This document shows, one piece after another, positions 18,712 through 55,685 of a DNA stretch of 64,000 nucleotides. Positions within the stretch are counted from its first letter, which is position 1. The number at the start of each line of letters is the position of its first letter. The position numbers and the translations under genes were made by a program. The stretch is from positions 204 to 64,203 of the IMG/VR virus record IMGVR_UViG_3300033076_000117; one strand, 5' to 3'. A model generated the notes under the pieces. It was given only the letters and a program-made list of their open reading frames with translations, was not told where the DNA came from and searched no databases. This DNA is from a virus (taxonomy: Duplodnaviria > Caudoviricetes).

Positions 18712-18722
18712 ATAAATATCTT

Positions 18723-19205: not shown

Positions 19206-19230
19206 TAAATACAGAATACAGGAATAAAAC

Positions 19231-19854
19231 ATGCGAAGCCTCAAACAATACATCGTTGAAAGCGTAAGAACTTACAACTACACAATCAAGATTGCTGGCG
19301 ACATTGATAAGAACTTTATGGACTTATTCAAGTACAATTTGAATAAGTTTGATCCAGTCAAAATCAGTGAACCAGTAACAACCCCTATTCAAAAGTCTCC
19401 ATATGGATTTCCTAATCTAGCAAATCAATCAGTGAACATCATTAAGGCAGAGTTTCGCTATCCAGCAACTGAGCCAATGATTCAACAGATTGCTCAATTG
19501 TTAGGTTACAACGTCAACATGGTTCGTGTTATTGATTCACGTTTTGATGATAGCATCAATAGCGAGTCAGAGGGCTATGCTAACGAGGCAGATCATAATC
19601 CATTGTTGCTACATCCAGAACTAGAAGAACAGCCTGGTGCTAAAGAAGCGGCAAAGGCTTATAGTGATTCGTATCTAAATTCTATTAAGACACAATCAGA
19701 AGGTTCTAAGATTGACATTCCTTACGAAGGTAAGAAAACACCTGATGCGTTTGATCCGTTCAAACCATACTTGGCTAATGATCCAAGAGGTGAAAAGAGT
19801 CCAATGTCAACAATCACTAGACCACCAAAGCCAGCAACTGGCGCAAGAAAATAA
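19231..19854 (+). CDS. Putative head/prohead protein
   Basis: Late promoter 19205-19211; N-terminus MRSLKQYIVE resembles the T4 capsid-targeting sequence. Confidence 0.5.
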   Translation: MRSLKQYIVESVRTYNYTIKIAGDIDKNFMDLFKYNLNKFDPVKISEPVTTPIQKSPYGFPNLANQSVNIIKAEFRYPATEPMIQQIAQLLGYNVNMVRVIDSRFDDSINSESEGYANEADHNPLLLHPELEEQPGAKEAAKAYSDSYLNSIKTQSEGSKIDIPYEGKKTPDAFDPFKPYLANDPRGEKSPMSTITRPPKPATGARK

Positions 19855-30095: not shown

Positions 30096-30108
30096 ATAAA
30101 TACCTTCG

Positions 30109-35420: not shown

Positions 35421-35589
35421 AATACTTCTCCTTTGTAAGAGCATGAGTTCTCATAACACTCAAGTTTATTTAAGGTCAATAAAACCACATATAGTAGCAT
35501 ACTTTTAACACAATCTTTTAGTATAAATATTAGGCTAACCCCGGAACTTTTCAAAAGTTGTATTCAATCAGAAAAAGATAAATACAACT

Positions 35590-37344: not shown

Positions 37345-37373
37345 TTGACACAGAATTAGTTCTGTGTTATACT
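37345..37373 (+). promoter_or_regulatory. sigma70 promoter with palindromic spacer
   Basis: TTGACA, 17 nt, TATACT; ACACAGAA-TTAG-TTCTGTGT (37348-37367). Confidence 0.8.
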
Positions 37374-38174: not shown

Positions 38175-38186
38175 CTAAAGGAAATT

Positions 38187-41160: not shown

Positions 41161-41165
41161 AATGA

Positions 41166-41193
41166 TAAATACTCTAATAAAATGGAGTATTTA
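41166..41193 (+). promoter_or_regulatory. Late promoter embedded in an RBS-sequestering hairpin
   Basis: TAAATACTC / GAGTATTTA 9-bp stem; ATAAATA 41165-41171; GGAG 41184-41187; ATG 41196. Confidence 0.7.
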
Positions 41194-41753: not shown

Positions 41754-44700
41754 ATGAAAATAAGTGCGATTCTATCTGAAGGCCGTAAAGTTGTATTAGA
41801 GGGCGGCAACTTAGCTATTGGCGGTGAACAAGCCGAACACCTCGACCTAAAGGTAACTAATCGCAGTGTAATGGTACCTATTCTAAATAAACTATTGAAC
41901 TCAATCAATAGTGAGTTTCAAAAACAATATAAACAACCATTATGGAACCCTGCATTACTAAAGAGTGGGCAGTTTCTAAGTGGATCTAGCCTACACTTCT
42001 TCAACGTTCAAGGTATTGATGACGAAACATTCGTAGCAAAGAAACCAACAGTGGGTGACATTGATACAATGGTCAACAAAGAACTAGAAGGCGAGTTGGC
42101 TACATTTTTGACACAGAATCAAGGCAAGATTATAGGCAACGGTAAACTAGTAGGATATCAGCGTGGTAATGAACAGTTTTCTAGTCTATGGGCACTGACT
42201 GACGTACCAGTAAAAGTTCAGATTGACTTAGAATTCGTACAGTTTGACAAAGGTGGTATGCCAACTGATTGGGCACGTTTCAGTCACAGTAGTTCATGGG
42301 ACGATTTACAAGCAGGCGTCAAAGGCGTATTTCACAAGTGGTTGATTCAATCACTAGCCGCACTAACAAAGCGTGACTTCTTATTACGCAAGATGGTTGG
42401 TCGTGGTAAACTACGTAAAGAAGAAGACGTTCCAACAACAGACAACATGTTTAGTTTCGCTGTCTCTAGTAAAGAAGGTGGTGGATTACGTGCTAAGTAT
42501 GAGCCTGTATTAGATGACAATGGACAGCCATTAGTAAAAGATGGATTGCCTGTTATGACTGCGGCACCTACAGCAGGATACTCACAAGACATTGGTGAGA
42601 TATTCACTAAGTTGTTTGGTGAGCGTTTGAATCCTAAGAAACTAAAACAAATACAAAACAAGTTCTGGTCATTCACTGGCTTAGTTGACTTAGTAAAGAC
42701 TATGTTGACTCCAGAAGAACAAGGCAAAGTAGTTACACAGTTCTTAGAAAAGACAATTGGTCCTGGCGCACAGGGCATGTACAAGAACAACCCTGATAAA
42801 GATATTAAAGAAAAGACAACAGCAATCAACTATCTATTGAATGCTGTTGGCATGAAGCCACCTGCAAACTATAATCAAATGTTGCAGACATATAGACAGA
42901 ATTACAAAATGACAGATGAATCAACTAGTCAAGTTGATCCTAATAGAACAAAATTGGCGACAAAAGCCAAAGCGGCGATTGCTGAAGCACCTAATTACAA
43001 GCGTAAAGGTATACAACATATATACAACCCCGGCTCAAGTGTAGAAATAAATGATATCGATTTCATAGAGATGTGTAAAGAAATCGCAGCCGACGGTGGT
43101 AAGTTAGAGAATGCTCCAATCAATCTAAAAGTAGACGGTGCTGGTATTCGTTTCGGAAAAGACGAACAAGGTAGACCATTCTTTATGACCTCTAAGGTTA
43201 CGGAACCTAAATACATTGACAACTACGGTGATTTTGAAGCATTTGGTCGTAGTCAAGGCCAAGATGAACAGCGTTTAGCATTCACTAAAAACTATGACGA
43301 GGCACTAAAGACTATTGTTACTGGTGACTTTATGAAAGCAATTCCTCCTGATACAATCGTTCAGGCAGAAATGTTGTTCAACCCAATGGCAAACAAAGAA
43401 CAAGACGGCTATCGTTTTGTCAACATCCCTTATGATCCTAAGAAATTAGGTTCAGTAATGACATTAGTTCCATTCAGTGTTCGTCAATATAGTACAGGTG
43501 AACAAAGACCTGATAGTCAAAAGATTCGTCAACAACTTATCAAAGATTCTACAAAGCAAATCAAGATGGTAGACAACCACTTGAAACATGGCGGTATTGA
43601 TGTAAGCAAGATTGTGAACCCTATTGCTAAGAATGGTGATAAGTTGGCAGCGGCTATAAAGACACGTGGCATGACTCCTGAGAAACAGAAAGCAATGGAG
43701 ATTGTTTCTAATGCTAAGAAGTCTTTGAGCGAAGCAATTTACAATGCCCCTATCAATGGTAAAGATGAGTTGGGAAGCAACATTGAAGGTCTTGTAGTCA
43801 ACTTACCTAGCGGCAGACTAGTCAAAGTTACAAGCCCTGAAATGAAACAAAAGATGGCTGCTAAAATGGCGGCTAACAAGAAGCCAACGACAGGTGGCAA
43901 TCGTAATCGCCCAGCAGTTGTAACTATCGGTAGTTTCGTTGGACACAGAGGTCACGAACAATTAATAAATCAAACTATTGCTACTGCAAAACAGATGAAT
44001 GGAGATCCATACATCTTTGTTAGCCCAGTAGTTGGTCCAGATGATCCTATTCCACCAGATGTAAAACTACAAACTCTACGTAAACTATATCCACAATACG
44101 CTGACAACATTCAAACTTGGAATGCTGAAGGCTCACCAATGAAGAAGATTGAAAAAGAACTCGTTCTTCCAGCAAACAGTCCATACAATAAGATTGTATT
44201 GTTAGTGGGTGATGACCGTTACGAAGGCATGAAGAAGTGGATGGATAGTCTAGAAAAGCGTATGAAAGATCCAGTTGCACTTGCTAAGTACGGCGGAACA
44301 CAGAATCAAGTTGACTTTGAAACTGTTCGTACAGAACGTGATCCAAGTAAAGGTGGTACTGGTATTAGCTTTACTCAGTTGCGTAACAAACTAGCAGATC
44401 CTAATGCTAGTGAGCAAGATAAACTAAATTTCTGGATGCAAGCATTTGATGGTCAGAAATTAGGTCCACAATGGATCAAACATTTGATGGATGTTACTGC
44501 ACAGAACATGGGCTTGAAACAACAGCAAATCAAAGAGTTTATTGAGCGTGTAAAGCCATTGTTGCCTACTGCATCAGAAGAACAAAAAGCTAGAATCTAT
44601 GAAATGTTAAGTAGGTACAAGTCTCAATTAGTTGAGGGTTTTGGTACTGGTTATCCAGAAACATACGAAGAAGAAAACGGTCCATTCCAACACAAAGGTG

Positions 44701-45095
44701 GATATCGTATCACTGATATGACAACCGAAGAGCATGTTCATACTGCGCCAACAATGGCTGGATACAGAACATACAAGCCAAGACATGTTCCAAGTCAAGT
44801 AGAATTGGATGCAGAAGATGAAACTTTGGGTGAAAAGATGGATCCTGAGTTAGCACAGATTATGGCGTATGCTCAACAACATTATCCAAGTTCAACATCT
44901 AAACAAGAAGCGTTTATGAAATTCGTACAACGTTCATTAAAGCATTCTAAAGAAGATGATATGGAACAGAACGATGAAATTATGAGCATAAAGAAAGCCA
45001 TAAATGATTTGGCACATGAACATTTGGAAATCAAACGTGCTATCAATGATTTACACAATGTTACCGAAAACTCTGATTATCTAGAGGAAAAATAA
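41754..45095 (+). CDS. Multi-domain protein: Pol-beta-like NTase + ligase-like KxDG domain + HxGH cytidyltransferase
   Basis: GDID (42054-42065), KVDG (43128-43139), EGLVV (43785-43799), GHRGH (43941-43955); N-terminus MKISAILSE. Confidence 0.65.
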   Translation: MKISAILSEGRKVVLEGGNLAIGGEQAEHLDLKVTNRSVMVPILNKLLNSINSEFQKQYKQPLWNPALLKSGQFLSGSSLHFFNVQGIDDETFVAKKPTVGDIDTMVNKELEGELATFLTQNQGKIIGNGKLVGYQRGNEQFSSLWALTDVPVKVQIDLEFVQFDKGGMPTDWARFSHSSSWDDLQAGVKGVFHKWLIQSLAALTKRDFLLRKMVGRGKLRKEEDVPTTDNMFSFAVSSKEGGGLRAKYEPVLDDNGQPLVKDGLPVMTAAPTAGYSQDIGEIFTKLFGERLNPKKLKQIQNKFWSFTGLVDLVKTMLTPEEQGKVVTQFLEKTIGPGAQGMYKNNPDKDIKEKTTAINYLLNAVGMKPPANYNQMLQTYRQNYKMTDESTSQVDPNRTKLATKAKAAIAEAPNYKRKGIQHIYNPGSSVEINDIDFIEMCKEIAADGGKLENAPINLKVDGAGIRFGKDEQGRPFFMTSKVTEPKYIDNYGDFEAFGRSQGQDEQRLAFTKNYDEALKTIVTGDFMKAIPPDTIVQAEMLFNPMANKEQDGYRFVNIPYDPKKLGSVMTLVPFSVRQYSTGEQRPDSQKIRQQLIKDSTKQIKMVDNHLKHGGIDVSKIVNPIAKNGDKLAAAIKTRGMTPEKQKAMEIVSNAKKSLSEAIYNAPINGKDELGSNIEGLVVNLPSGRLVKVTSPEMKQKMAAKMAANKKPTTGGNRNRPAVVTIGSFVGHRGHEQLINQTIATAKQMNGDPYIFVSPVVGPDDPIPPDVKLQTLRKLYPQYADNIQTWNAEGSPMKKIEKELVLPANSPYNKIVLLVGDDRYEGMKKWMDSLEKRMKDPVALAKYGGTQNQVDFETVRTERDPSKGGTGISFTQLRNKLADPNASEQDKLNFWMQAFDGQKLGPQWIKHLMDVTAQNMGLKQQQIKEFIERVKPLLPTASEEQKARIYEMLSRYKSQLVEGFGTGYPETYEEENGPFQHKGGYRITDMTTEEHVHTAPTMAGYRTYKPRHVPSQVELDAEDETLGEKMDPELAQIMAYAQQHYPSSTSKQEAFMKFVQRSLKHSKEDDMEQNDEIMSIKKAINDLAHEHLEIKRAINDLHNVTENSDYLEEK

Positions 45096-45146
45096 TTTAA
45101 CAAGCTCTATGCCGTGTAAATAATTCTATCTTATCAAGAGGAATTT

Positions 45147-46064
45147 ATGGCAAGAGCAAAAAAATCTGAAACACAAGCAGCCGCACAACAAGTGGCTGCC
45201 CAAGCAGTACCAGAAACTACTACAGTTCAACAAGATGGGCAACAAGCCCCACAACAAGGTCAAGTTCAAGTAAACGTTGACTATCTACGTACTACCCGAG
45301 TACATATTGCTATGCCATGTTATGGCGGCATGTTGACAGAATCTACATTCATGTCATTTATCAAGTGGGCTAATACAGCCCGTCAACTTGGTATCGACTG
45401 GACGCTAGAAACAATGGTCAATGAATCATTGATTAGTCGTGCTAGAAACACACTAACTGCTAAATTCTTGGACATGCCTGAGGCAACGCACTTGTTCTTT
45501 GTTGACGCAGACATTGGTTGGGAACCATGGCACTTACTAGTACTACTGAACCGTGACGTTGACGTTATCGGTGGATTGTATCCAATGAAGACAATGCCAA
45601 TCAAGTGGGTTGTTAACGGCTTTGAGGGTGCAGAAACTGGACCAGATGGCCTACAAGAAGTATCTAAAGCAGGTACAGGTTTCTTACTAATCAAGAAACA
45701 TGTATTTGAAAAGATGAAGTCACATCCTGCTGTCAAGCAGTATAAGAACGACATTGGTTTAGATCCTAAGTTTGACCAACACTTAAAAACTTATTTCGAC
45801 ACAGCAGTTCGCCAGAATCGTTATTACAGTGAAGACTGGACATTCTGTGAAAACTGGCGTGATCTAGGCGGTAAGATTTGGATGGATACACGTGTATTAT
45901 TGCGTCACAGCGGTAGCTATGTATTCTGTATGGAAAATCAGCAACACTTGTTGAACACAATTGGTCCTATGTATGTACAGGAACAACAACAGAAGGCAAA
46001 AGCAGAGGCGGCCCAGCAAATAAAGCCTGGACCAGACGGAAACGTCACTCTCAATATTACCTAA
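45147..46064 (+). CDS. GT-A fold glycosyltransferase with Gln-rich N-terminus
   Basis: IAMPCYGG, SLISRARN, HLFFVDAD (DxD), GTGFLLIK..VFEKM, SED..FC..W. Confidence 0.75.
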   Translation: MARAKKSETQAAAQQVAAQAVPETTTVQQDGQQAPQQGQVQVNVDYLRTTRVHIAMPCYGGMLTESTFMSFIKWANTARQLGIDWTLETMVNESLISRARNTLTAKFLDMPEATHLFFVDADIGWEPWHLLVLLNRDVDVIGGLYPMKTMPIKWVVNGFEGAETGPDGLQEVSKAGTGFLLIKKHVFEKMKSHPAVKQYKNDIGLDPKFDQHLKTYFDTAVRQNRYYSEDWTFCENWRDLGGKIWMDTRVLLRHSGSYVFCMENQQHLLNTIGPMYVQEQQQKAKAEAAQQIKPGPDGNVTLNIT

Positions 46065-46068
46065 AACA

Positions 46069-46088
46069 GGCCCCGAAAGGGGCTTTTT
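46069..46088 (+). terminator. Intrinsic terminator
   Basis: GGCCCC-GAAA-GGGGCT-TTTT. Confidence 0.8.
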
Positions 46089-46109
46089 AGTTGATGCGCT
46101 AAATACATT

Positions 46110-48146
46110 ATGGACCTCAAAGAATTAGAATCATTCAAACTAGGTGATGCTGTAAAGTTTCACGACAAACTGAACCCAAAACTGTGGCATGGTCAACACC
46201 TACAGCCCGAAGTAAAGAAGCAATTACTAGTGATTGCGGAAGATTTCCTACAAGAGTTAGGCATCAGTGGATTGAACGTAAAAGACATTACAGTATCCGG
46301 TAGTAACGCCGCATACAGTTACACACCACACAGTGATTTAGACTTACATATCTTGGTAGATATGAGTAAACTACCAAATGATGACGTTTACCAAGAACTA
46401 TTCACTGCCAAGAAAACATTGTATAATGACAGCCATGATATTAGTATTCATGGGGTACCAGTAGAATTGTATGTACAGGACAGTAATCAACCTGTTGTCA
46501 GTCTAGGCGAATATAGCTTAATGAATGACAAGTGGTTGCGTATTCCTACAAAACGTAGAGCAAATTTTGACCAAACAGCTAGTAAGTCCAAGTACGAGAA
46601 ACTAGCAAAAGTCATTGATTACGCACTACAATCTGATGACTTACATAAAGTCATGGATGTATTAAAGACTATCAAGCGTTATCGTCAAGCAGGATTAGAT
46701 AAAGGTGGTGAGTTTGGACCAGAGAATCTAGCATTTAAAGCATTGCGCCACCAAGGGTACATTACGAAGTTATATGCGTTGCGTGATAAGTTACATAGCG
46801 ATACATTGACAATTGAGAATATGTATCAGAATCCTGAGTTGGACAAGCCAACTAAGAATGTCAGTCAGATTGCTAAAGACCACGATGTTGAAAAATTAGA
46901 AGTCTTGTTACAGTTGATAAAAGGTGTCAAAGTAGAAAAAGAACATACTAGCGTAGGTAGCGTTGCTAGAGAAATCGCACTAGATCATTTAGACGAAAAC
47001 CCACGTTATTATGATGAATTAGCAAAAGTAGGATTAGAAGAAGATAGTGAATCTGAAATTCACAACTACGAAAAGCTAGACAAGATATTGAATAAACTAT
47101 GTGAAATGGTTGTCAAGGGTCAAAAGTCTGACAAAGACTATGGCATGGTTGCCGCTTGTGTATTAGATCCAGATAACAATATAGTAGCTGGTTTGAACAT
47201 GCCTGGTAAGAATGGCAAAAGAATTCATGCCGAGCGTGTTGCTGTAGAGAAATATGAAAAGAAATATGGCGAAGTTCCTGAGGGTAGTATTGTAATCACT
47301 ACACTAAGTCCTTGCAATGAATCTGACGATGAAACTGCTGAAGATAGAGAAGGTGAAAGCTGTACTGATTACTTGAACATTAAGGGCATCAAGAAAGTCT
47401 ATTGCGGATATATTGATCCTACACAAGACAATGACCAACGTCAGTTCAATTTGATGGAAACTAGCAATAAAGAGATACGTGAAGAATGTAAGAAATTTGC
47501 CGACACTTTCTTGGATACAGAAGATTTGACTGAATCATTCGACCAACCCTATCCTATGAAGTGGGAAAGCAGTGGTTATGGTGATGTGGATGCATTGGCA
47601 AGATTACCAGATGGTAGTCCACTAAGTATCATGTTCAACCAGCAACAAGGTGATGATGGCGAAGAAACAGTGCAGGTTGAATTCTATAGAAACAACAGTC
47701 AGGAAGTCACAGGTGAAGGTGACGCACAAAGAATATTTGCTACTGTGTTAGCCGCCATTCAGAAATATATAAAGAAATATAAACCCCTACGCTTGACATT
47801 CTCCGCTAGTAAAGACAACTGGGCAAAGCAACAACAGAATAGTGAAAGTCGTGCTAGTTTATACGATAGGCTGGTTCAGCGTTATAGTAAGTCTTGGGGC
47901 TATAGAGCATTTAGAGCAGATAACGGTGACTTGGTTATCTATGAATTGAATAGAATAAACAAGAATATGTCTGAATCCTCATCAGGATACATTCCAAGCA
48001 ATGCTGAAAAAGACGATCCACGCTATAAAACAGCACTAACAGTAGATATCAAGCCTGATACAATGATGAAAAACGCTAAGAAATTAGGGTCTAAAATCAG
48101 TCGTGCAGGTATCCCTCCAACATTGAAGGCAAGTGGTAAGTTCTGA
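46110..48146 (+). CDS. Modular protein: nucleotidyltransferase + DUF5661-like + Zn-dependent deaminase + unknown modules
   Basis: SGS...SDLDLH; GVKVEKEH...IALDHL; HAE...PC...C; modules separated by LEE, LTE, MSE. Confidence 0.65.
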   Translation: MDLKELESFKLGDAVKFHDKLNPKLWHGQHLQPEVKKQLLVIAEDFLQELGISGLNVKDITVSGSNAAYSYTPHSDLDLHILVDMSKLPNDDVYQELFTAKKTLYNDSHDISIHGVPVELYVQDSNQPVVSLGEYSLMNDKWLRIPTKRRANFDQTASKSKYEKLAKVIDYALQSDDLHKVMDVLKTIKRYRQAGLDKGGEFGPENLAFKALRHQGYITKLYALRDKLHSDTLTIENMYQNPELDKPTKNVSQIAKDHDVEKLEVLLQLIKGVKVEKEHTSVGSVAREIALDHLDENPRYYDELAKVGLEEDSESEIHNYEKLDKILNKLCEMVVKGQKSDKDYGMVAACVLDPDNNIVAGLNMPGKNGKRIHAERVAVEKYEKKYGEVPEGSIVITTLSPCNESDDETAEDREGESCTDYLNIKGIKKVYCGYIDPTQDNDQRQFNLMETSNKEIREECKKFADTFLDTEDLTESFDQPYPMKWESSGYGDVDALARLPDGSPLSIMFNQQQGDDGEETVQVEFYRNNSQEVTGEGDAQRIFATVLAAIQKYIKKYKPLRLTFSASKDNWAKQQQNSESRASLYDRLVQRYSKSWGYRAFRADNGDLVIYELNRINKNMSESSSGYIPSNAEKDDPRYKTALTVDIKPDTMMKNAKKLGSKISRAGIPPTLKASGKF

Positions 48147-48191
48147 TTAGTATAGTATTTGATAAATACAATATTAGTTTGGAATTTTACT

Positions 48192-48809
48192 ATGCGCTTT
48201 AAAGAAATATCAGAAAGTACCGTAGCAGGAGCAATTGCTCCTGTAGAATCCGCTGGTTTTGTGAAAATGAAAACCCGTGGTCCAGTAGTTTACGGTGACA
48301 CAACACCTCAAGACCTTGTAAAGAAAAAGAAAAAGGGCCAGTACTCTAATTCTATCGCTGAGGGTAAACAAGTTGACGAAGCAAAACTTGAAGAAGAAGA
48401 TATTATCGTTATTCCAGGTCACAGTGGAAAGCGTAAAACAGGTTTTGTACCAAGAGGTCAAAGTCGTGTAGACCACGAAGTTGAAATGGCACGTAGCGAC
48501 TTGCTAGCAACACTAAAAAATGCTAAAGCATTGTATGAACTACTAGAGCATCGTAGCGAAGAAGAAGGTCTAGAAGGCTGGGTACAAGAAAAGATTATCA
48601 AAGCAAGCGACTACCTAAACGCTGTAAAAGAATACTATGACGAAAAGAGTGTTCAACAAGAAGGTGCCAAAGTAGACCGCATGGTAAAGCACATTGAAAA
48701 GTCTGAACGTAAACTAGGTAAGTCAAAAGACGAAGCAGAAAACATCGCATGGGCAACAGCTAACAAGCGTGGCATGTTAGACAACAAGAACAAGAAAAAG
48801 GGCAAATAA
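48192..48809 (+). CDS. Putative internal head protein
   Basis: Late promoter 48162-48168; start MRFKEISE; internal IAE, VDE, LEE sites. Confidence 0.55.
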   Translation: MRFKEISESTVAGAIAPVESAGFVKMKTRGPVVYGDTTPQDLVKKKKKGQYSNSIAEGKQVDEAKLEEEDIIVIPGHSGKRKTGFVPRGQSRVDHEVEMARSDLLATLKNAKALYELLEHRSEEEGLEGWVQEKIIKASDYLNAVKEYYDEKSVQQEGAKVDRMVKHIEKSERKLGKSKDEAENIAWATANKRGMLDNKNKKKGK

Positions 48810-50848
48810 TGAGCAACATCCTAAGAGGTTTGACCCTAAACGAAGGTTTGTACGATGAACTCAAAGCAGAAGGTGATCGTAAGATAGCCGCTATCAAAGC
48901 CAACCCAGAAGCATACAGCAAACAGTATGGTATTCCATTAGACCATAAACACTTCATTGGTGCTGTATTAGTTGCTATGGATCGTGAAGAACAACGTGAA
49001 AAACAAATCAAACGTGACGCTGATAACAAAGCACGTTATGATGCAAGTAGACAGCAACAACTAGCACAAGATAAAGAAAACATTGACCAATTGAAAGCAC
49101 AATTGGCACAATTAGAAGCACAATTTGATCCTAGTTATGAATACAGTGATGACTATACATTCTGGAATAAACAGAAAGATATCGGTGGTCAGATTCGTGC
49201 GTTGAAAAAGCGTATCAGTGATGTTGAAGGTCAACAACTTGATGAACTAAGTCCACAAACACTAGCAAGTTACAAAAAGAAAGCTGGTGCTGATGCTACT
49301 GCCGCAGACAAGCGTGGCGACTTTGCTAGAGGTAACAAACGTATGAGTGGTATCATGCAGGCTACTCGTAAAGAATTTGACAACGATACCAAACGATCTA
49401 ACGCAAGGTCACAAATCAAGACAGATGACAACTTACGAGCATACTACGCACAGCGCAAACAAGAAAAGCAGGATGTTGAAGAAGTTAGCCGTCGTGGAAT
49501 ACTAAAAGGCCTTGCGGCAGCAGGTGCATCAGCTATTGCTCCAGCATTTGCCAAAGGTGGCGGCGGAGGTGGCCGAGGAGGCGGTGGTGGCAGAGCATCA
49601 GGTGGTGGGAGAACAACTGTAGGTCGTGGACCACAAAGTGCATCACATGTTAGTGACGCACCACATAGCACATTTCACCCAGGCTCTCCGTTCTATCCAG
49701 TAGTAGGAGGTCACGGTGGTGGCACACATACTGCTAATGATGCTGACAAGAAAGAATACATCAAGTTCTTAACAAGTTATGCTAATGCTATTCGTGCAGG
49801 TAAGATGACTCCTGAAATGCGTAAGTGGTTGACACAGCACCCTGAAGTCATTGAGGACTTGAAGCGTGGCAAGTATGGACTAACTATGGGTCAACTAAAC
49901 GCAGACTTGGTAGACATTGAATCTCGCAAGAATTATCACTTGATGCGTGAAGGTTCTGACGAACCTAATCTTTCAAAAATGTCAGTTGATGAACTCAAAC
50001 AACATATTGAGGAATTGACCAACTCCGCATCAGAATTCTTTGGTATAGAACGATCATATATCAATATGGATATTGCTAAGGCTAAGGCAATGCTACGCAG
50101 AAAATTAAAGCAAGGTGTGGCGGAAGACGATGCCGGCGATGTTGAACAGCGTATGATTGCTAAAATAGAAAAAGAAAAACAACGTTTAGCAAAACTAAAG
50201 CAGACTGATCCAGAAGCATACAAGCGTGAAATGGCTAAGCGTGAAGCAGACCGAGCAAGAATGCCAGCAGTATCTACATTTGAAGAACAAAATGTAGCGG
50301 AAGATAAGGTAAGTCAGTTACACAAAGCGTGGGACAAGGCATTAAAGACAAAGCCAGTTAGTCCACAACAGCAACAGCGTAACCGTGAGCGTTGGGCACA
50401 GCGTCAAGCAGAAAAAGAACAAGGAAGCAAAGATATGAAAATCGATGAACTAGCAATCAATGAAGATTGGCAAAAAGTCAACAAGAAGGATAAGACTGAT
50501 GGTATGAGTAGCAAAGCAGTCAAAGCATATCGCCGTGAGAATCCAGGTTCTAAATTAAAGACTGCGGTAACTACAAAACCCAGTAAACTAAAGAAAGGTT
50601 CTAAAGCCGCGAAGCGCCGCAAATCTTTCTGCGCTAGAATGAGTGGCATGAAGAAAGCACATGCTAATGCTAAGACTAAACGAGATCCAGATAGCCCAAT
50701 CAATAAGGCATTGCGCCGTTGGAACTGTGAGTCCATTGAGCAAATGGAACAGTTAGTAATGATTGCTGAACAGAAAATTGCTGAAGCAAAAAATGCTAAA
50801 CAACAGGCTGCTATAGCAATTGCTAAGAAAGCCGCAAAAAAGGGTTAA
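48809..50848 (+). CDS. Modular putative internal head polyprotein with internal Tat-like signal and DUF6321-like C-terminal module
   Basis: Modules after LNE, LDE, VEE, MRE, VAE, INE, IAE; VSRRGILKGLAAAGASAIAPAFA; RRKSFCARM...ALRRWNC. Confidence 0.55.
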   Translation: MSNILRGLTLNEGLYDELKAEGDRKIAAIKANPEAYSKQYGIPLDHKHFIGAVLVAMDREEQREKQIKRDADNKARYDASRQQQLAQDKENIDQLKAQLAQLEAQFDPSYEYSDDYTFWNKQKDIGGQIRALKKRISDVEGQQLDELSPQTLASYKKKAGADATAADKRGDFARGNKRMSGIMQATRKEFDNDTKRSNARSQIKTDDNLRAYYAQRKQEKQDVEEVSRRGILKGLAAAGASAIAPAFAKGGGGGGRGGGGGRASGGGRTTVGRGPQSASHVSDAPHSTFHPGSPFYPVVGGHGGGTHTANDADKKEYIKFLTSYANAIRAGKMTPEMRKWLTQHPEVIEDLKRGKYGLTMGQLNADLVDIESRKNYHLMREGSDEPNLSKMSVDELKQHIEELTNSASEFFGIERSYINMDIAKAKAMLRRKLKQGVAEDDAGDVEQRMIAKIEKEKQRLAKLKQTDPEAYKREMAKREADRARMPAVSTFEEQNVAEDKVSQLHKAWDKALKTKPVSPQQQQRNRERWAQRQAEKEQGSKDMKIDELAINEDWQKVNKKDKTDGMSSKAVKAYRRENPGSKLKTAVTTKPSKLKKGSKAAKRRKSFCARMSGMKKAHANAKTKRDPDSPINKALRRWNCESIEQMEQLVMIAEQKIAEAKNAKQQAAIAIAKKAAKKG

Positions 50849-50897
50849 ATATGAAAGATTATGATTTCTATTGGAACCTAAAAGGATACCCTCGATA

Positions 50898-51338
50898 ATG
50901 TTGTCAGATAACTTAAAAGTATTATTAGCAAGTACTCAATCATTTGCTATCAAAACACAGAACTTTCACTGGAATGTAGAAGGTAGTAACTTTCCACAGT
51001 ATCATGAATTCTTTGACACAATGTATGGTGATGTATCAGATACTATCGACAAGATTGCTGAGTATATCCGTATTCTTGGTCATTACACACCAGGTAGTCT
51101 AACTCGCTATAGTGAGTTGTCTATCATTCAGGATCAAACAAAAATCCCACGTGCTGAATTGATGTTTGTAGAATCTTATCAAGACTGTGAAGCAATGATT
51201 CAGTTAGTCACTAGTATGTTTGACGAAGCTACTAACGAACGTCAGCAAGGTATTGCTAACTATATGGCAGAACTACAAGATTTATATGCTAAGAAAGCAT
51301 GGTTCATTCGCAGTATTCTAAAGAAAGAACGTGAATGA
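50898..51338 (+). CDS. dps: Dps/ferritin-like protein
   Basis: NFHWNVEG..F..YHEFF, D.IAEYIR.LG, W.IRS; start at MLSDN. Confidence 0.88.
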   Translation: MLSDNLKVLLASTQSFAIKTQNFHWNVEGSNFPQYHEFFDTMYGDVSDTIDKIAEYIRILGHYTPGSLTRYSELSIIQDQTKIPRAELMFVESYQDCEAMIQLVTSMFDEATNERQQGIANYMAELQDLYAKKAWFIRSILKKERE

Positions 51339-51889
51339 GAGATATCATAGAGTTACTTGAAGATAAGTCAAAGCCGAAAGACGTTGAAATTATCCAGTTG
51401 AACTTCATTGAGCGTGAGGTTTCTCCTGTTATGAGTAAAGAAACTCTAGACTTACACTATGGTAAGTTAGCACACGGTTACGCAGAACGATATAACAAGA
51501 ACGAAGGCGACAAAGACTTCAACTATGCAGGGGTATTCTTGCATAACATGTTGTTCACTCAGTATAGAGAAGTAAGAAACAACAATAAGCCAAACGGTCC
51601 TATGGAAGGTTTCATCAACAAACATTTTAGTTCATATGATGATATGAAAACTAAGTTCGAAGAAGAAGCAATGAAGATTCAAGGCAGTGGTTGGATATAC
51701 TTAGCAGAAGATGGATCAATCAAAACAATCAAGAACCACGAAGTACGCAACGACATACTATTATTGATTGACTGGTGGGAACATGCTTTTATATTAGACT
51801 ATGGCAGTGATAAGAAAAAGTATTTAAAAGAACAGTGGAAGATCATAAACTGGAACGTTATAAATACTCGATGGGGTAAGAGTTTATGA
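51335..51889 (+). CDS. sod: Fe/Mn superoxide dismutase with CTS-like N-terminus
   Basis: LHY, LHN, QGSGW, IDWWEHA..LDY keep the four metal ligands (H, H, D, H). Confidence 0.85.
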   Translation: MRDIIELLEDKSKPKDVEIIQLNFIEREVSPVMSKETLDLHYGKLAHGYAERYNKNEGDKDFNYAGVFLHNMLFTQYREVRNNNKPNGPMEGFINKHFSSYDDMKTKFEEEAMKIQGSGWIYLAEDGSIKTIKNHEVRNDILLLIDWWEHAFILDYGSDKKKYLKEQWKIINWNVINTRWGKSL

Positions 51890-53331
51890 GAGCAAATGAG
51901 TTCATCACTGAAATATTTCAACCTGGTAAGAAGAACTGGGAATGGCTACGCCGTGGTAGTGAAGAGGCAACCGCACAATTTAAAGTTGGCGATAGAGAAT
52001 ATCGTTGGGATGCATTTACTCAAAGAGCAAATGATAAAAAGTGGGAAGTACAATTTCGTTTGATACGACAACGTACTGATCCTGATGGATTAGACTTGTT
52101 TGGAAAAACAGGTACAGGTAATTCAGCAGAAGTATTATCTACAGCAGTAGATATCACACGTTCATTTATCAAAGAATACGGTCTAGACAAAGTAGAAGAA
52201 ATTACGTTCAACGCAAAAGAAGATAGTCGTATTGGCTTATACGCTAAGATGATAAAGCGTTTATTACCTGATTGGGACTTGTATCAAAAATACAGCAAAG
52301 ACATGGGAATGGAATATCATTTGACTGACCGCCGAGCATATGATAAGCCTGAAAACAAACTAAGCGAAGAAGCTAAAGCCGCCAAGTATAACGGCTTGAT
52401 GATGAAGTACGCATTCAATGACAATGCTTTGATACTAAAAGCATTTACAAAAGAGGGCCCAATAGCTTACGTTAAGTTTGTTAAAGAAGATAAAGAATTA
52501 TATCCACAGGATTTATGGACACATGATGACTATCGCAATCGTGGTATTGCTAAGTCAATGTATGATTACCTAAAGAGTGAAGGTTATGTAATCAATAGAA
52601 GTCATGACCAAACTAAAGCTGGTGCAGGATTCTGGGATAAACATCGCGGTGAAGATGCTTATGTTTGGGAAGAAGAAGTCATTGATGAAATGCCACTACC
52701 AGCTGATTGGGACCCTCAACAGTTTCATCAACCAAGCACAAGTTTCAAATCAAGATTACAGTACGCATTAGACCGTGCGGCAAAGTTAGGTACAGGTTCA
52801 AGTCGTGTTGCTACTACAATCGAATATCAAGGTCGTCCTACTGTATTGAAGATTGCTAAGAATCAAAAAGGTCTAGCACAGAATTCAGTAGAAGCAAGTA
52901 TATTAGATGATGGATATGCTAGTCAGATGGGCATATTAATTCCGTTAATTGACTACGATGAACAGAATCGTGAACCAAGTTGGATTCACACTGAGATGGC
53001 TACAAAAGCAAGTGATAAGAAACTTGCTAATATGATGGGTGTTGATAATCTCAGTCAACTTGTAAACATGGCATGGGCTATTACAGGTAAAAAGAAATAT
53101 CTAGGAACATACCAACAGTATGTTGATTACCTACAACAAAAAGGTAAAACTGACCAAGAAATTGAAACAGCAAGTGACTACGCAAACAAACTAGCAGAGT
53201 TGAATAGTTCATTCGATGTTGAGTTGGGCGACTTTACTAGAGCGGCTAACTGGGGTATATATCAAGGGCAACCAGTTATCATTGATGTTGGTTTCAACAG
53301 CAACGTATTAAATCAATATTATAAGAGATGA
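51886..53331 (+). CDS. Modular protein: unknown module + GNAT acetyltransferase + protein-kinase-like domain
   Basis: MRANEFITE; YRNRGIAKSMY (acetyl-CoA motif A); LGTGSSR, VLKIAK, GDFTRAANWG, IIDVG. Confidence 0.65.
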   Translation: MRANEFITEIFQPGKKNWEWLRRGSEEATAQFKVGDREYRWDAFTQRANDKKWEVQFRLIRQRTDPDGLDLFGKTGTGNSAEVLSTAVDITRSFIKEYGLDKVEEITFNAKEDSRIGLYAKMIKRLLPDWDLYQKYSKDMGMEYHLTDRRAYDKPENKLSEEAKAAKYNGLMMKYAFNDNALILKAFTKEGPIAYVKFVKEDKELYPQDLWTHDDYRNRGIAKSMYDYLKSEGYVINRSHDQTKAGAGFWDKHRGEDAYVWEEEVIDEMPLPADWDPQQFHQPSTSFKSRLQYALDRAAKLGTGSSRVATTIEYQGRPTVLKIAKNQKGLAQNSVEASILDDGYASQMGILIPLIDYDEQNREPSWIHTEMATKASDKKLANMMGVDNLSQLVNMAWAITGKKKYLGTYQQYVDYLQQKGKTDQEIETASDYANKLAELNSSFDVELGDFTRAANWGIYQGQPVIIDVGFNSNVLNQYYKR

Positions 53332-53972
53332 GAGCCACAGAATTTATAAGTGAAGATATATCACGAAGAGGCTTTCTAGGGGGTCTTGCTGGTATGGCTG
53401 CAGGTTCAGCAATGGGCAAGCAAATGCCACAACAAAAACCCGTTGAAGAACCACCAAACTTACTAAGCAATAATCCAGCTAACGAAACTACATTATTGAA
53501 AACTGCTAAGAAGGCAGGCATGAAGGGTCCTGAACTAGCACAGTTCATGGCACAAACAAAGCATGAATCTTGGGACTTTGAACGACTAAAAGAAAAGCCA
53601 CAACCTGGTGTCAAAGATTATTACAATAAGAAATACGACATTCGTTATAGCCCAAGAACAGCAAAGATATTAGGGAACAAACATCCAGGTGATGGTCACA
53701 AATATCATGGTCGTGGTTTTATACAATTGACAGGTCGTGATAACTATCGTATGGCAGGACAAGCATTGGGCATTGATTTGTTAAATCATCCTGAATTAGC
53801 TAGTAAGCCAGACGTTGCCGCACAAATTGCTGTATGGTATTGGAATACAAGAGTAAAGCCTAGCATACATAATTTTGCTGATACAAGGGCTGTCACACAA
53901 AAGATCAATCCAGCTGCCAAAGGCTTAGAAAACAGACACGAAAATTTTAAAGACTACATGAGAATAATATGA
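53328..53972 (+). CDS. GH19 lysozyme with CTS-like leader followed by Tat signal
   Basis: MRATEFISE|DISRRGFLGGLAGMAAGSAMG; AQFMAQTKHES, YHGRGFIQLTGRDNY, WYW, T.KIN. Confidence 0.85.
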   Translation: MRATEFISEDISRRGFLGGLAGMAAGSAMGKQMPQQKPVEEPPNLLSNNPANETTLLKTAKKAGMKGPELAQFMAQTKHESWDFERLKEKPQPGVKDYYNKKYDIRYSPRTAKILGNKHPGDGHKYHGRGFIQLTGRDNYRMAGQALGIDLLNHPELASKPDVAAQIAVWYWNTRVKPSIHNFADTRAVTQKINPAAKGLENRHENFKDYMRII

Positions 53973-54790
53973 AAAGAATAATAACAATACTCACACTGAC
54001 ACTAGCTACATTATCAGCAAACGCATGGACACAACGTGCTCCGTTTCCAGTTCAGCAATGTCAAAAACATGCCCCTTATGGCTTCCCTAATACAACTAAT
54101 GTACAGCCATTATGCCAGCAAGCATATCTAGTAGGATACGATGCATCTGCTAAATTACCTAAATTCGTAACCTATGAACTACTACCTCAAAACGCTCTCG
54201 GCTGCTTCCCTCGTACTAATGCTTTCGTTGCTAATCAATATGTTCAGAATGGCCCCACTCCCGACGATTACACAGGTACTGGATTCGATAAAGGACATGC
54301 CGCACCCGACGGTGACTTATCATGGGATCAACAAGTAGAGTATGAATCATTCTTGATGACTAACATGTTCCCTCAACGTGGTTCATTGAATCGTGGTATT
54401 TGGAAACTATTAGAAACAAGTGTACGTGGTTGGGCAGTGCAAAAGAATCAAAGCTATACAATTTACGTTGGCGCACTATACAATGGTACTGAGAAGAAGA
54501 TCGGTAAGGGAGTTATTGTACCTACAGGATATTACAAGATTGTAATCAACAATGTAACTAAAGAAGTCGCTGGTTGGGGATTCCCGCACGTTGATCCTTA
54601 TCCTAACTTAGGAAATGACTTGACTAAGTTTCGTGTTCCTCTAGCACAGATTCAACAAGCCGCAGGAGTACAATATGCATTCCCTCAAGGTGCAGTTGAA
54701 CTACAGCCTGGAAAAGAATGGACTGTCGATTTTGGAGCACTCACAAACGCAAAGCGCACTAAATGTGGCGCAAACGCATCAGCAGATTGA
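53969..54790 (+). CDS. DNA/RNA non-specific endonuclease (NucA/EndA family) with Sec signal peptide
   Basis: MKRIITILTLTLATLSANA; DKGHAAP, SFLMTNMFPQ...LNRGIW..LE...R, VPTGYYKIV. Confidence 0.9.
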   Translation: MKRIITILTLTLATLSANAWTQRAPFPVQQCQKHAPYGFPNTTNVQPLCQQAYLVGYDASAKLPKFVTYELLPQNALGCFPRTNAFVANQYVQNGPTPDDYTGTGFDKGHAAPDGDLSWDQQVEYESFLMTNMFPQRGSLNRGIWKLLETSVRGWAVQKNQSYTIYVGALYNGTEKKIGKGVIVPTGYYKIVINNVTKEVAGWGFPHVDPYPNLGNDLTKFRVPLAQIQQAAGVQYAFPQGAVELQPGKEWTVDFGALTNAKRTKCGANASAD

Positions 54791-54817
54791 TAAATACATA
54801 ATAACAAGGAGTTAGCC

Positions 54818-55093
54818 ATGGCAACTACACACGAAATTACTTCAGATTTAGCCGAATTCAAAAATTGGGATGAATGGATGGAATCAAATCCAGATGTTTC
54901 TCCTGAAGAATTAGCTCAATACAAAGAAACTAATGTTCCTGGTAAAGAAGCAGAACATAGTGAAAAGTTTTTCAACAGATACGTTGAATGGGTTAAAGAT
55001 CAAAAAATTAACCACACACAGATTTTTACCGATGAAGCAGGTAAAGTAACTACTGATAACGTAACGCACGAAAATATTGATGAGATTCTCTGA
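54818..55093 (+). CDS. Hypothetical acidic protein
   Basis: Late promoter 54790-54796; SD AAGGAG. Confidence 0.6.
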   Translation: MATTHEITSDLAEFKNWDEWMESNPDVSPEELAQYKETNVPGKEAEHSEKFFNRYVEWVKDQKINHTQIFTDEAGKVTTDNVTHENIDEIL

Positions 55094-55658
55094 TATTCTT
55101 ACTGAGTCTGCCGCCAGCGAACTAGCACAAAAATTGCCTAGTTTGAAGAAGCACGACTACAATACCATTGACAAACTTGTAAGAGTGGTTGCAAATAAGC
55201 ACAAGATTTCCAGCCACGCACTAAACAACTTGTTCGTCACTAAGTTTCATCAAACACCTGATAAATGGATCAAAGGTAAGTTAGATGAAACTGATACAAG
55301 TGACCTAGATATACAAGATGAAGTAGACAAGTTTGCTCAATGGACAGCAAGACGTTTGCATCTCAAAACAATACCAAAAATTGAACTAAGCTACGATACA
55401 CAAGAAGCCCAAGATGGACACCATACTGGTCGTCACACTGAGGGTACTAATGAAGTTTGGGTATACGCAAAGAATCGTAATTTGGTAGATATTCTTAGAA
55501 CCGTTTTTCATGAATTGGTACACTGCCGTCAAAGTGAATTGGGTATGATAAAACCAGGTGACAGTTATCCTGGTAGTCCAATTGAAGTTATGGCAGACAT
55601 GTTGGCTGGCAAATACATGAAAATTTACGGCGAACAACACCATCACATCTTTCAATAA
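55080..55658 (+). CDS. Zincin-like metallopeptidase with CTS-like N-terminus
   Basis: MRFSDILTE; RTVFHELVHCRQ (HExxH) and downstream E..A. Confidence 0.65.
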   Translation: MRFSDILTESAASELAQKLPSLKKHDYNTIDKLVRVVANKHKISSHALNNLFVTKFHQTPDKWIKGKLDETDTSDLDIQDEVDKFAQWTARRLHLKTIPKIELSYDTQEAQDGHHTGRHTEGTNEVWVYAKNRNLVDILRTVFHELVHCRQSELGMIKPGDSYPGSPIEVMADMLAGKYMKIYGEQHHHIFQ

Positions 55659-55666
55659 TCATTGAC

Positions 55667-55685
55667 TTGTGCTATACTAGCACAA
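55667..55685 (+). promoter_or_regulatory. Extended -10 promoter centred on an 8-bp palindrome
   Basis: TG-C-TATACT (55670-55678); TTGTGCTA-TAC-TAGCACAA (55667-55685); ATG at 55685. Confidence 0.6.

What the first reader, a model, noticed from the sequence alone, without database searches (positions are those of the whole stretch)
41754..55658. Island of late genes sharing a T4 capsid-targeting-like N-terminus: a probable injected enzyme cargo
Seen N-termini: MKISAILSE (41754), MDLKELE (46110), MRFKEISE (48192), MSNILRGLTLNE (48809), MRDIIELLE (51335), MRANEFITE (51886), MRATEFISE (53328), MRFSDILTE (55080); also MRSLKQYIVE (19231), MDFKSLLSQLDQLNE (19869) and MNILNE (36207). Late promoters sit at 41165, 46099, 48162 and 54790. 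Known: T4 IPs and Alt are packaged through such leaders and injected with the DNA. Inferred: this phage injects NTases, a ligase-like domain, a deaminase, SOD, a GNAT, a kinase, a lysozyme and a metallopeptidase, a much broader takeover or anti-defence toolkit than T4's.
Basis: partly seen in the sequence, partly recalled or inferred. Interest (0 to 1): 0.8.

Follow-up and report, generated by a model that had tools for sequence, protein, structure and literature searches.

The report
T4-type capsid-targeting leaders on enzyme polyproteins
A fragment of an uncultured giant T4-like phage encodes late enzymes and multi-enzyme polyproteins that start with, and are subdivided by, the short signal that phage T4 uses to load proteins into its head and trim them, which suggests a much larger injected protein cargo than T4's; loading and injection are not yet shown.

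Summary
Six island genes (41754, 48192, 51335, 51886, 53328, 55080) and 19231 start with a conserved 8-10-residue leader, M-[RK]-x-x-[ED]-hydrophobic-hydrophobic-x-E, close to T4 IPII/IPIII MKTYQEFIAE. Two listed leaders (46110, 36207) fail in orthologues; 48809 and 19869 are uncertain.

The window is about 18% of an uncultured T4-superfamily jumbo myovirus. Island genes sit behind the same ATAAATA box as the virion genes.

New here: the same hydrophobic-x-Glu motif marks internal module boundaries. Across 150 cluster representatives, the three modules of the 481-aa protein are shuffled. Each is preceded by Glu at P1 (37/37 and 108/115) and L/I/V at P3, whether N-terminal or internal. This is the T4 gp21 site, L/I-x-E. 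In relatives, the Tat-signal plus GH19 module lies inside polyproteins directly after such a junction, so it needs cleavage to work.

A gp21-type (S77) protease is present in 4/4 environmental relatives and in the 5 cultured phages checked, four of which clearly carry leader genes. The conserved HExxH protein is absent from those five.

Best reading (about 0.6): T4-style head targeting plus prohead-protease cutting of an enzyme cargo. Packaging and injection are inferred, not shown. New variant of a known kind. The scan's other notes on this theme come from this same window only.

The parts
41166..41171 (+). Late-promoter-like TAAATA box heading the 41196-41360-41754 operon. Equivalent boxes at 45117, 46100, 48163, 50846, 51861 and 54791.
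   Evidence: 19 of 33 plus-strand boxes lie 8-35 nt upstream of starts (0.9 expected). The same box heads virion genes 10440, 16032, 17919, 19231, 22186, 28809 and 35590.
41754..45095 (+). 1113-aa polyprotein. Leader aa 1-9 (41754-41780), second site aa 10-16 (41781-41801), Pol-beta-NTase-like module aa 17-385, junction MTDE aa 386-389 (42909-42920), unassigned middle part, then a cytidylyltransferase-like module from about aa 715.
   Evidence: 120 shorter homologues carry varied leaders that all end ...E|GGN, a few start directly at GGN, and 62 end at query residue 385; phrog_3041. NTase lead.
46110..48146 (+). 678-aa polyprotein: NTase-like, DUF5661, zinc deaminase, module A, tail. No validated N-terminal leader. 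Internal junction EDLTE aa 471-475 (47520-47534) lies before module A.
   Evidence: domains; residue 7 is D/N/H/A in orthologues; module A is always preceded by hydrophobic-x-E.
48192..48809 (+). 205-aa protein of unknown function with an 8-aa leader (48192-48215). The true start is the ATG at 48192, not the TTG at 48159.
   Evidence: orthologues start MKINQI..E followed by a conserved T/S-T-x-G-x-[IV]-A. Box at 48163.
48809..50848 (+). 679-aa modular protein. Possible 12-aa leader (48809-48844). Junction QDVEE aa 221-225 (49469-49483) is followed by an internal Tat-like signal aa 226-248 (49484-49552). Junction ELAINE aa 547-552 (50447-50464) lies before DUF6321.
   Evidence: TAT_signal 19.0 bits, below cut-off; DUF6321. 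(P0181 has ...VNE|DWQKVN before the same module)..
51335..51889 (+). Fe/Mn superoxide dismutase with a 9-aa leader (51335-51361) inside an N-terminal extension of about 17 aa.
   Evidence: Sod_Fe_C 1.3e-23. (leader kept in two orthologues).
51886..53331 (+). 481-aa polyprotein. Leader aa 1-9 (51886-51912), module A, junction aa 157-161 (52354-52368), GNAT module B, junction aa 264-268 (52675-52689), kinase-fold module C.
   Evidence: module shuffling; P1 Glu and P3 L/I/V. (pLDDT below 50 at 1-5 and 255-269). (tandem GNAT and protein-kinase folds).
53328..53972 (+). Leader aa 1-9 (53328-53354), then a Tat-type signal aa 10-30 (53355-53417), then a GH19 muramidase/chitinase domain.
   Evidence: in 13 relatives the Tat+GH19 module is internal; 8 of them show a ...[VLG]-x-E or ..VDE junction ending in Glu, and 5 have Ala-Asp there instead.
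55080..55658 (+). 192-aa protein. Leader aa 1-9 (55080-55106), a helical N-half, and a zincin-like C-half with HExxH at aa 144-148 (55509-55523).
   Evidence: 1,493 homologues at about 70% identity; E9, H144, E145 and H148 invariant in the alignment. (Wss1/SprT, YbeY and minigluzincin folds, Z up to 8.8).
19231..19854 (+). 207-aa protein in the neck/tail-side virion cluster with a conserved 10-aa leader (19231-19260). Outside the island.
   Evidence: M-[RK]-S-L-K-x-Y-[IL]-x-E|S in 3 genomes. Own TAAATA box at 19206.
45147..46064 (+). Late island genes without a leader, so not cargo by this criterion: glycosyltransferase-like 45147-46064; Dps/ferritin 50898-51338; Sec-signal NucA-type nuclease 53969-54790; 91-aa ORF 54818-55093.

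Best explanation
The island is a late-expressed, fast-changing set of accessory genes in an uncultured T4-superfamily jumbo myovirus.

Proposed mechanism:
1. Most of its products begin with a T4-type capsid targeting sequence: 8-12 residues ending in hydrophobic-x-Glu, with an aromatic residue at P4. This leader would bind the scaffolding core and carry the protein into the prohead.
2. The phage's gp21-type (Peptidase S77) prohead protease then cuts after the Glu. This removes the leader and also cuts at identical hydrophobic-x-Glu junctions between modules, so one targeted polyprotein yields several separate enzymes inside the head.
3. The enzymes leave with the DNA at the next infection.
4. 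In two proteins the cut would expose a Tat signal, which would send that module on to the periplasm.

Shown: the motif, its peptide-level conservation, its position at shuffled module boundaries and in flexible linkers, late-type promoters, and the protease in relatives.

Inferred: cleavage, encapsidation, injection and Tat export.
For: 1. Similarity to T4. T4 IPII/IPIII start MKTYQEFIAE, gp24 starts MAKINELLRE, and gp23 has ..FLTE before its mature start. The window has MRANEFITE, MRATEFISE and MRFSDILTE. PMC9026906 states that gp21 cuts after L/I-x-E and that ten IPIII residues suffice for targeting, with targeting determinants at residues 4 and 7 and processing determinants at 8 and 10.

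2. Junction rule. Modules A, B and C of the 481-aa protein recur in many architectures. P1 is Glu in 37/37 (A) and 108/115 (C). P3 is L/I/V in 37/37 and 108/115. This holds at N-termini and internally, whatever lies upstream.

3. Targeting residue. P4 is Phe in 21/23 N-terminal leaders of module A but never in the 14 internal junctions. This fits T4, where that position serves targeting rather than cleavage.

4. Standalone relatives. NTase-like homologues end exactly before the window protein's MTDE junction and carry leaders ending ..E|GGN. One reads MIKTYQQFLLE.

5. Internal Tat signals sit immediately after junction Glu residues.

6. Junctions fall in low-confidence linkers between well-folded domains.

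7. Protease distribution. S77 protease is in 4/4 environmental relatives and in the 5 cultured phages checked. Four of these clearly carry leader genes: XacN1, Xoo-sp13, SCTP-2 and Slicko01. The fifth, PA5oct, has mainly gp150. Relatives' capsid protein has ..QLLAE|S at the position of the T4 gp23 cut.

8. Portability. Leaders occur on at least 8 unrelated families near the 55080 gene in 80 loci.

9. Late promoters. Late-type boxes head island and virion genes. They precede 69/143 leader ORFs in relatives, against 1/143 controls.

10. PA5oct gp150 starts MKINDIITE, follows the portal gene and is flagged as detected by virion MS in its record.
Against: - No virion proteome or N-terminal sequencing exists for this clade.
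- The window's own contig is about 18% complete and lacks the head module and the protease.
- In PA5oct two other leader-like regex hits are not flagged as virion proteins, although those hits may be chance.
- XacN1's virion-packed chitinase has no such leader.
- A Tat-exported GH19 would make simple sense as a late endolysin with no packaging at all.
- The 46110 polyprotein has internal junctions but no validated N-terminal leader.
- The motif definitions were made after seeing the data.
- The junction residues could be partly inherited with each module.
Confidence: 0.6

Rival explanations
1. Processing without packaging. The hydrophobic-x-Glu sites are cut in the cytoplasm of the infected cell, by the conserved HExxH zincin-like protein (55080) or another protease. 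Polyproteins are then just a compact way to make several late enzymes. The Tat-GH19 module would be the exported endolysin.
For: The 55080 family is very conserved (about 70% identity over 1,493 hits). It has a zincin-like fold with an invariant HExxH. Iyer et al. 2017 predict such MPTase domains process polyvalent proteins. A Tat-exported lysin fits late lysis.
Against: The five cultured phages checked, four of them clear carriers of the leader/junction (XacN1, Xoo-sp13, SCTP-2, Slicko01), have no 55080 homologue but all have S77. The site matches the known gp21 specificity, and the leaders match T4 CTS residues beyond the cut site. 55080 itself carries the leader.
Confidence: 0.15
2. No cleavage. 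The leader and the junction residues are a conserved N-terminal cap, a translation-start feature, or a linker inherited with each module.
For: Glu and hydrophobic residues are common in helices. The loose motif M-x(2-14)-[LI]-x-E also occurs in 13 of 54 non-island proteins.
Against: Only P1 and P3 are fixed, while P2 and P4 vary. The leader replaces the internal junction residues in standalone forms. Conservation is at peptide level, not nucleotide level. Internal Tat signals would have no function without a cut. The junctions are disordered linkers.
Confidence: 0.07
3. The leader is a recognition tag for the phage's ClpA-like unfoldase (38187-40460) working with ClpP, giving timed turnover or unfolding of these proteins.
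For: A ClpA-like AAA+ protein with an IGF-type loop and a DnaJ homologue lie just upstream of the island. XacN1 and PA5oct encode ClpP near leader-type genes.
Against: A degron does not explain conserved internal junctions or the Tat signals placed after them. The ClpA/DnaJ operon has a sigma-70-type early promoter, whereas the island is late.
Confidence: 0.04

Closest known systems
T4 capsid targeting sequences of IPI/IPII/IPIII and Alt, processed by the gp21 prohead protease (Mullaney and Black 1996; reviewed in PMC9026906 and PMC3012670)
   Same: A short N-terminal leader ending in L/I-x-Glu with an aromatic residue at P4. It sits on otherwise unrelated late proteins. The lineage encodes an S77 protease. 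Capsid and scaffold proteins carry the same type of site.
   Different: Here the leader is 8-12 residues long and sits on enzymes (SOD, GNAT/kinase-fold, NTase-like, GH19, zincin-like). The same site also subdivides polyproteins whose modules are shuffled across more than a thousand environmental relatives. Tat signals follow some sites. No experimental proof exists.
Ejection and inner-body proteins of phiKZ, 201phi2-1 and SPN3US, cut by gp175/gp245-type proteases (PMC5694885, PMC10052503)
   Same: Giant phages package many proteins. Multiple cuts are made after Glu, and propeptides are thought to target proteins to the prohead.
   Different: Those proteases use S/A/G-x-E sites, and the propeptides are often longer than 100 residues. 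Here P3 is L/I/V (T4 type), leaders are about 9 residues, and the phage belongs to the T4 superfamily, not the phiKZ group.
Polyvalent proteins of phages and conjugative elements (Iyer et al. 2017, PMC5512222)
   Same: Unrelated enzymatic domains (Pol-beta NTase, peptidase, lysozyme and others) are strung in one polypeptide among late genes. They are predicted to be delivered with the DNA and released by proteolysis.
   Different: That work predicts autoprocessing by fused MPTase domains. It does not describe a conserved junction motif or a T4-type leader. Here the zincin-like domain is a separate, leader-bearing protein, and the junction matches the prohead protease.
Phage P1 Dar anti-restriction cargo (PMC9024508)
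   Same: Head-internal accessory proteins are loaded by N-terminal determinants and injected.
   Different: It is an unrelated phage lineage with different loading hierarchy and signals.

Membership tests
T4-type CTS / gp21 (Peptidase S77) substrate | N-terminal propeptide of about 10-20 residues ending in L/I-x-Glu | tested here: met
   Met for 41754, 48192, 51335, 51886, 53328, 55080 and 19231. Not met for 46110 and 36207.
T4-type CTS / gp21 (Peptidase S77) substrate | A targeting determinant upstream of the cut site (aromatic residue at the position of IPIII F7) | tested here: met
   Phe at P4 in 21/23 N-terminal leaders of module A and in 0/14 internal junctions. T4 determinants are taken from PMC9026906.
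T4-type CTS / gp21 (Peptidase S77) substrate | The same genome encodes an S77 prohead protease | tested here: inconclusive
   None in the 64-kb contig, which is about 18% complete. Present above cut-off in 4/4 environmental relatives and in the 5 cultured phages checked.
T4-type CTS / gp21 (Peptidase S77) substrate | Head shell and core proteins of the lineage carry the same cleavage motif | tested here: met
   relatives' capsid protein has ..QLLAE|S where T4 gp23 has ..FLTE|A. The scaffold and protease N-termini carry several hydrophobic-x-E sites.
T4-type CTS / gp21 (Peptidase S77) substrate | Late co-expression with head genes | tested here: met
   Promoter-box positions only. No expression data.
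T4-type CTS / gp21 (Peptidase S77) substrate | The protein is present in virions with its leader removed, and the leader is sufficient to package a foreign protein | not testable with these tools
   Needs virion mass spectrometry and reporter fusions.
phiKZ-type propeptide (S/A/G-x-E) | A small residue at P3 | tested here: not met
   P3 is L/I/V in 37/37 and 108/115 junctions.
Polyvalent proteins (Iyer et al. 2017) | Two or more unrelated effector or enzyme domains in one polypeptide, encoded among late or virion genes | tested here: met
Polyvalent proteins (Iyer et al. 2017) | An associated zincin-like MPTase domain | tested here: inconclusive
   It is a separate gene (55080), not fused. HExxH is invariant. 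Fold match to Wss1 has Z 8.8, rmsd 3.8 over 101 residues, which is middling.
Twin-arginine (Tat) signal peptide | S/T-R-R-x-F-L motif, hydrophobic region and an A-x-A type cleavage site at an N-terminus | tested here: inconclusive
   The motif is visible at aa 10-30 of 53328 and aa 226-248 of 48809. Pfam TAT_signal scores 17.1 and 19.0 bits, below the 22.7 cut-off. It becomes N-terminal only after the proposed cut.

The most novel reading that the evidence does not exclude
An abundant clade of uncultured giant T4-like phages loads its head with strings of freely shuffled enzyme modules. One N-terminal targeting leader carries each polyprotein, and the prohead protease cuts it into separate enzymes at a universal hydrophobic-x-Glu junction. 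Some modules carry Tat signals that become functional only after that cut. Proteins injected into the cytoplasm of the next host would then be re-exported to its periplasm.
Probability: 0.3. Interest if true: 0.85.

Novelty: new variant of a known kind. Interest (0 to 1): 0.7.

Why it matters
T4's capsid targeting sequence has been treated as a T-even speciality serving a few small internal proteins and Alt.

If this reading holds, the same two-part signal (target, then cut) is a general cargo-loading grammar across the T4 superfamily, jumbo phages included. The short motif could then be used to read the injected early-acting proteome of thousands of uncultured phages directly from sequence.

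It would also explain how polyvalent proteins are resolved into working enzymes. It gives a simple junction rule for finding module boundaries. It suggests natural leaders for packaging foreign proteins into phage heads.

The Tat signals unmasked by cleavage would be a new route for phage proteins to reach the periplasm.

Tried and rejected
- Megablast of the island against 50,697 phage records found nothing. The clade is uncultured.
- Sequence searches of PDB with the 1113-aa and 481-aa proteins found nothing.
- Pfam on sub-segments gave only sub-threshold hits, so the 'ligase-like' domain is unconfirmed.
- The exact T4 late promoter TATAAATA is not enriched (3 copies against 5.25 expected). 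Only the positional test of the TAAATA core is significant.
- The loose regex M-x(2-14)-[LI]-x-E is not discriminating: 8/12 island proteins against 13/54 others. An internal regex scan for junctions is also non-specific.
- My first degenerate DNA pattern used a wrong code for Glu/Asp. It was repeated correctly.
- Seeking proteomic support in cultured phages gave little. XacN1's virion chitinase has no leader. In PA5oct only gp150 is flagged as MS-detected. The Atu_ph07 hit could not be mapped to that paper's protein list.
- A literature search for the leader strings returned only irrelevant word matches. No paper describing this junction rule was found.
- Recent duplication or an RNA element as the cause of leader similarity is rejected, because of the synonymous differences.


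Full report
WHAT THE WINDOW IS

The window is all but 203 bases of a 64,203-bp viral contig, rated about 18% complete. Its family-B DNA polymerase is 46-48% identical to those of the jumbo phages Atu_ph07 and Phosso. Its 1192-aa sheath matches Atu_ph07, Phosso and PA5oct. It also encodes T4-type tube, gp4-like head-completion, gp15-like and clamp-loader proteins. It is therefore a fragment of an uncultured T4-superfamily jumbo myovirus. No cultured phage matches the island at DNA level.

One island protein (55080) alone has 1,493 homologues at about 70% identity, on contigs up to 363 kb. The clade is large and environmental.

THE OBSERVATION

- A tight motif, [FILMV][ILVF][STA]E, occurs 15 times in 20,660 residues. 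Four of those are at residues 6-9 of island proteins 41754, 51886, 53328 and 55080.
- The near-identical leaders of 51886 and 53328 differ at synonymous positions, so the peptide is what is conserved.
- Orthologues confirm a conserved terminal Glu for 41754, 48192, 51335, 51886, 53328, 55080 and 19231.
- They do not confirm 46110, where the Glu is D/N/H/A in orthologues, or 36207.
- 48809 and 19869 are kept in one orthologue each.

The promoter boxes are real. Of 33 plus-strand TAAATA copies, 19 lie 8-35 nt upstream of starts, against 0.9 expected. They head both virion genes and island genes. The island lies between a sigma-70-type early operon (DnaJ and a ClpA-like protein, promoter at 37345) and another at 56259 that heads the replication genes. 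No leader sits on an early or replication gene.

WHAT THE LEADER RESEMBLES

T4 IPII and IPIII both begin MKTYQEFIAE. T4 gp24 begins MAKINELLRE, gp22 begins MLKEQLIAE, and gp23 has ..FLTE before its mature start.

PMC9026906 states the following:
- gp21 cuts after L/I-x-E.
- The first ten residues of IPIII suffice for head targeting.
- Residues 4 and 7 matter for targeting, and residues 8 and 10 for processing.
- The CTS may be a general way for T4-like phages to load varied proteins.

The window's MRANEFITE, MRATEFISE and MRFSDILTE align with this one residue shorter.

THE KEY NEW RESULT: THE SAME SITE DIVIDES POLYPROTEINS

A full-library search with the 481-aa protein (51886) gave 1,769 hits. 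Its three parts behave as independent modules: A (about 10-157), B (a GNAT, about 162-255) and C (269-481). They occur alone, in other orders, and fused to other domains.

I mapped the residues before each module start:
- Module A: P1 is Glu in 37/37, and P3 is L/I/V in 37/37.
- Module C: P1 is Glu in 108/115, and P3 is L/I/V in 108/115.
- The rule holds equally for N-terminal copies (leader of the MRAxEFIxE type) and internal copies (such as ..EEVLDE), whatever lies upstream.
- P2 and P4 vary internally.
- P4 is Phe in 21/23 N-terminal leaders of module A and in none of its 14 internal junctions. This is what T4 genetics predicts if P4 serves targeting and P3 and P1 serve cutting.

Cultured phages show the same pattern:
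- XacN1 ORF170 and Xoo-sp13 gene 166 are standalone C modules with a leader ending ..FLSE or ..FLTE directly before the conserved PLPxDWD start. The window protein has ..VIDE there.
- Slicko01 has five tandem leader genes, the last being a C module.
- SCTP-2 has seven paralogues with MK[IV]NDILxE-type leaders next to the terminase gene.

Other island proteins follow the same rule.
- 41754: the N-terminal domain belongs to a family of proteins of about 365 aa. Their leaders vary in length but always end ..E|GGN, and one reads MIKTYQQFLLE. A few start directly at GGN. Of the homologues, 62 end at the window protein's residue 385, immediately before its MTDE junction.
- 55080: orthologues keep E9 invariant. 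A subgroup has the leader MRATEFITE, then a Gly-rich insert, then a second ..VNE site in register with the usual one.
- Tat-plus-GH19 module of 53328: this is the strongest case. It is internal in 13 relatives' larger proteins. Eight of these show a junction ending in Glu immediately before it, and five have Ala-Asp at that position. The window's 48809 protein has a second Tat-like signal at aa 226-248, straight after ..DVEE. An internal Tat signal has no function unless a cut makes it N-terminal.

In the AlphaFold model of the 481-aa protein, the only long low-confidence segments are residues 1-5 and the 255-269 junction. These lie between confidently folded domains.

WHICH PROTEASE

A Peptidase_S77 (gp21) homologue is above cut-off in all four long environmental relatives. 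It is also above cut-off in XacN1, Xoo-sp13, SCTP-2, PA5oct and Slicko01.

In two relatives fetched whole, the capsid protein has ..QLLAE|S at the position of the T4 gp23 cut. The scaffold, core and protease N-termini are rich in hydrophobic-x-E sites.

The alternative is the conserved HExxH protein 55080. It has a zincin-like fold: Wss1 Z 8.8, with YbeY and minigluzincins close behind, all middling scores. It resembles the MPTase domains that Iyer et al. proposed process polyvalent proteins. However, it has no homologue in any of the five cultured phages checked, four of which clearly carry leader genes. It also carries the leader itself. The site therefore tracks S77, not the HExxH protein.

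HOW WIDESPREAD

- In 80 IMG/VR loci around 55080 homologues, the nine-residue pattern is about 7-fold enriched after Met. It heads at least eight unrelated protein families.
- Of 143 leader ORFs, 69 have a TAAATA box within 40 nt, against 1/143 random controls.
- Genome-wide, the strict pattern marks 4 of 254 and about 9 of 641 ORFs in two relatives. None is a replication protein.
- The region between the ClpA-like gene and the polymerase gene differs in content between relatives, and the same modules are re-partitioned among genes.

WHAT THE MODULES ARE

Supported by profile or fold:
- Fe/Mn SOD.
- GH19.
- Zinc deaminase with DUF5661.
- DUF6321.
- Dps, and a NucA-type nuclease with a Sec signal (neither has a leader).
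- Cytidylyltransferase-like.
- Tandem GNAT plus a protein-kinase-like fold.
- Zincin-like HExxH.

Leads only: Pol-beta NTase for the first domain of 41754 and for the first domain of 46110 (sub-threshold). Not confirmed: the 'ligase-like' part of 41754.

LIMITS

Nothing here shows that these proteins are in virions or are injected.
- The only proteomic link is PA5oct gp150. It is a head-module protein that starts MKINDIITE and is flagged as MS-detected in its record.
- Two other PA5oct regex hits are not flagged, and the reversed-pattern control also gave hits.
- A Tat-exported GH19 would also make sense as an ordinary late endolysin.
- The motif definitions were made after seeing the data.
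- The window's own head genes are missing.

VERDICT

- Observation: largely confirmed, with two of eleven leaders rejected and two uncertain.
- Interpretation: partly supported. A T4-type targeting-and-cleavage signal is well supported. An injected enzyme cargo is the most economical reading but is untested.
- I found no paper describing this junction rule or leader in jumbo T4-like phages.
- I rate it a new variant of a known kind.

Noticed in passing
window 37380-40460: A DnaJ homologue and a 757-aa ClpA-like double-AAA+ protein with an IGF-type ClpP-docking loop sit behind a near-consensus sigma-70 promoter (37345-37373), directly upstream of the late island. Early phage chaperones might refold injected cargo. 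This is speculation.
   Followed up: partly
window 19869-22088: A 739-aa protein that is extremely charged and of low complexity, with a Cys cluster, lies in the virion gene block. In relative G001 its homologue (953 aa) contains a 47-residue stretch 89% identical to the C-terminus of island protein 48192. It too appears modular and may be a head-internal protein.
   Followed up: partly
window 25678-26307: A second GH19 gene without leader or signal lies inside the tail/baseplate block. It is either the tail-associated lysozyme or the true endolysin. This leaves the role of the Tat-GH19 (53328) open.
   Followed up: no
window 53969-54790: A NucA-type non-specific endonuclease with a classical Sec signal peptide sits in the same late operon. 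It is presumably periplasmic or secreted and is conserved at 78% identity in a relative.
   Followed up: no
L100-L126 (G003, IMG/VR contig of 524,565 bp): The contig is rated 100% complete, yet it carries two diverged copies of the same gene block (polymerase, clamp, island genes) at 1-38 kb and 503-524 kb. It is probably two related genomes joined, or long diverged terminal repeats.
   Followed up: partly
L147 (Salicola phage SCTP-2, genes 213-219) and L148 (Alishewanella phage Slicko01, 50-3603): These cultured phages carry tandem arrays of paralogues that all start with T4-CTS-like leaders (MK[IV]NDILxE and MKIxxLYE types). They are candidate internal-protein loci that could be tested at the bench.
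   Followed up: partly
window 46100-46105, 35579-35584, 18709-18718, 30093-30102: At some genes the TAAATA box lies only 10-16 nt before the ATG. This implies leaderless or very short-leader late mRNAs, in contrast to the class at 25-30 nt.
   Followed up: no
window 55667-56275: A PP-loop ATPase (SGGVDS motif) has no PHROG match. It lies between the island and the replication operon and is conserved at 77% identity in a relative.
   Followed up: no
model m9857c3bd8b21, residues 1-75 of the 55080 protein: The helical N-half gives weak structural matches to phage ejection-protein assemblies: cyanophage A4 pre-ejectosome Z 6.9, DEV gp72:gp73 Z 5.6, PhiM1 ejectosome Z 5.1. For helical segments these scores may be chance.
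   Followed up: no
L150 (PA5oct 180349-181020): The PA5oct record flags its ClpP homologue as detected in virions by ESI-MS/MS.
   Followed up: no
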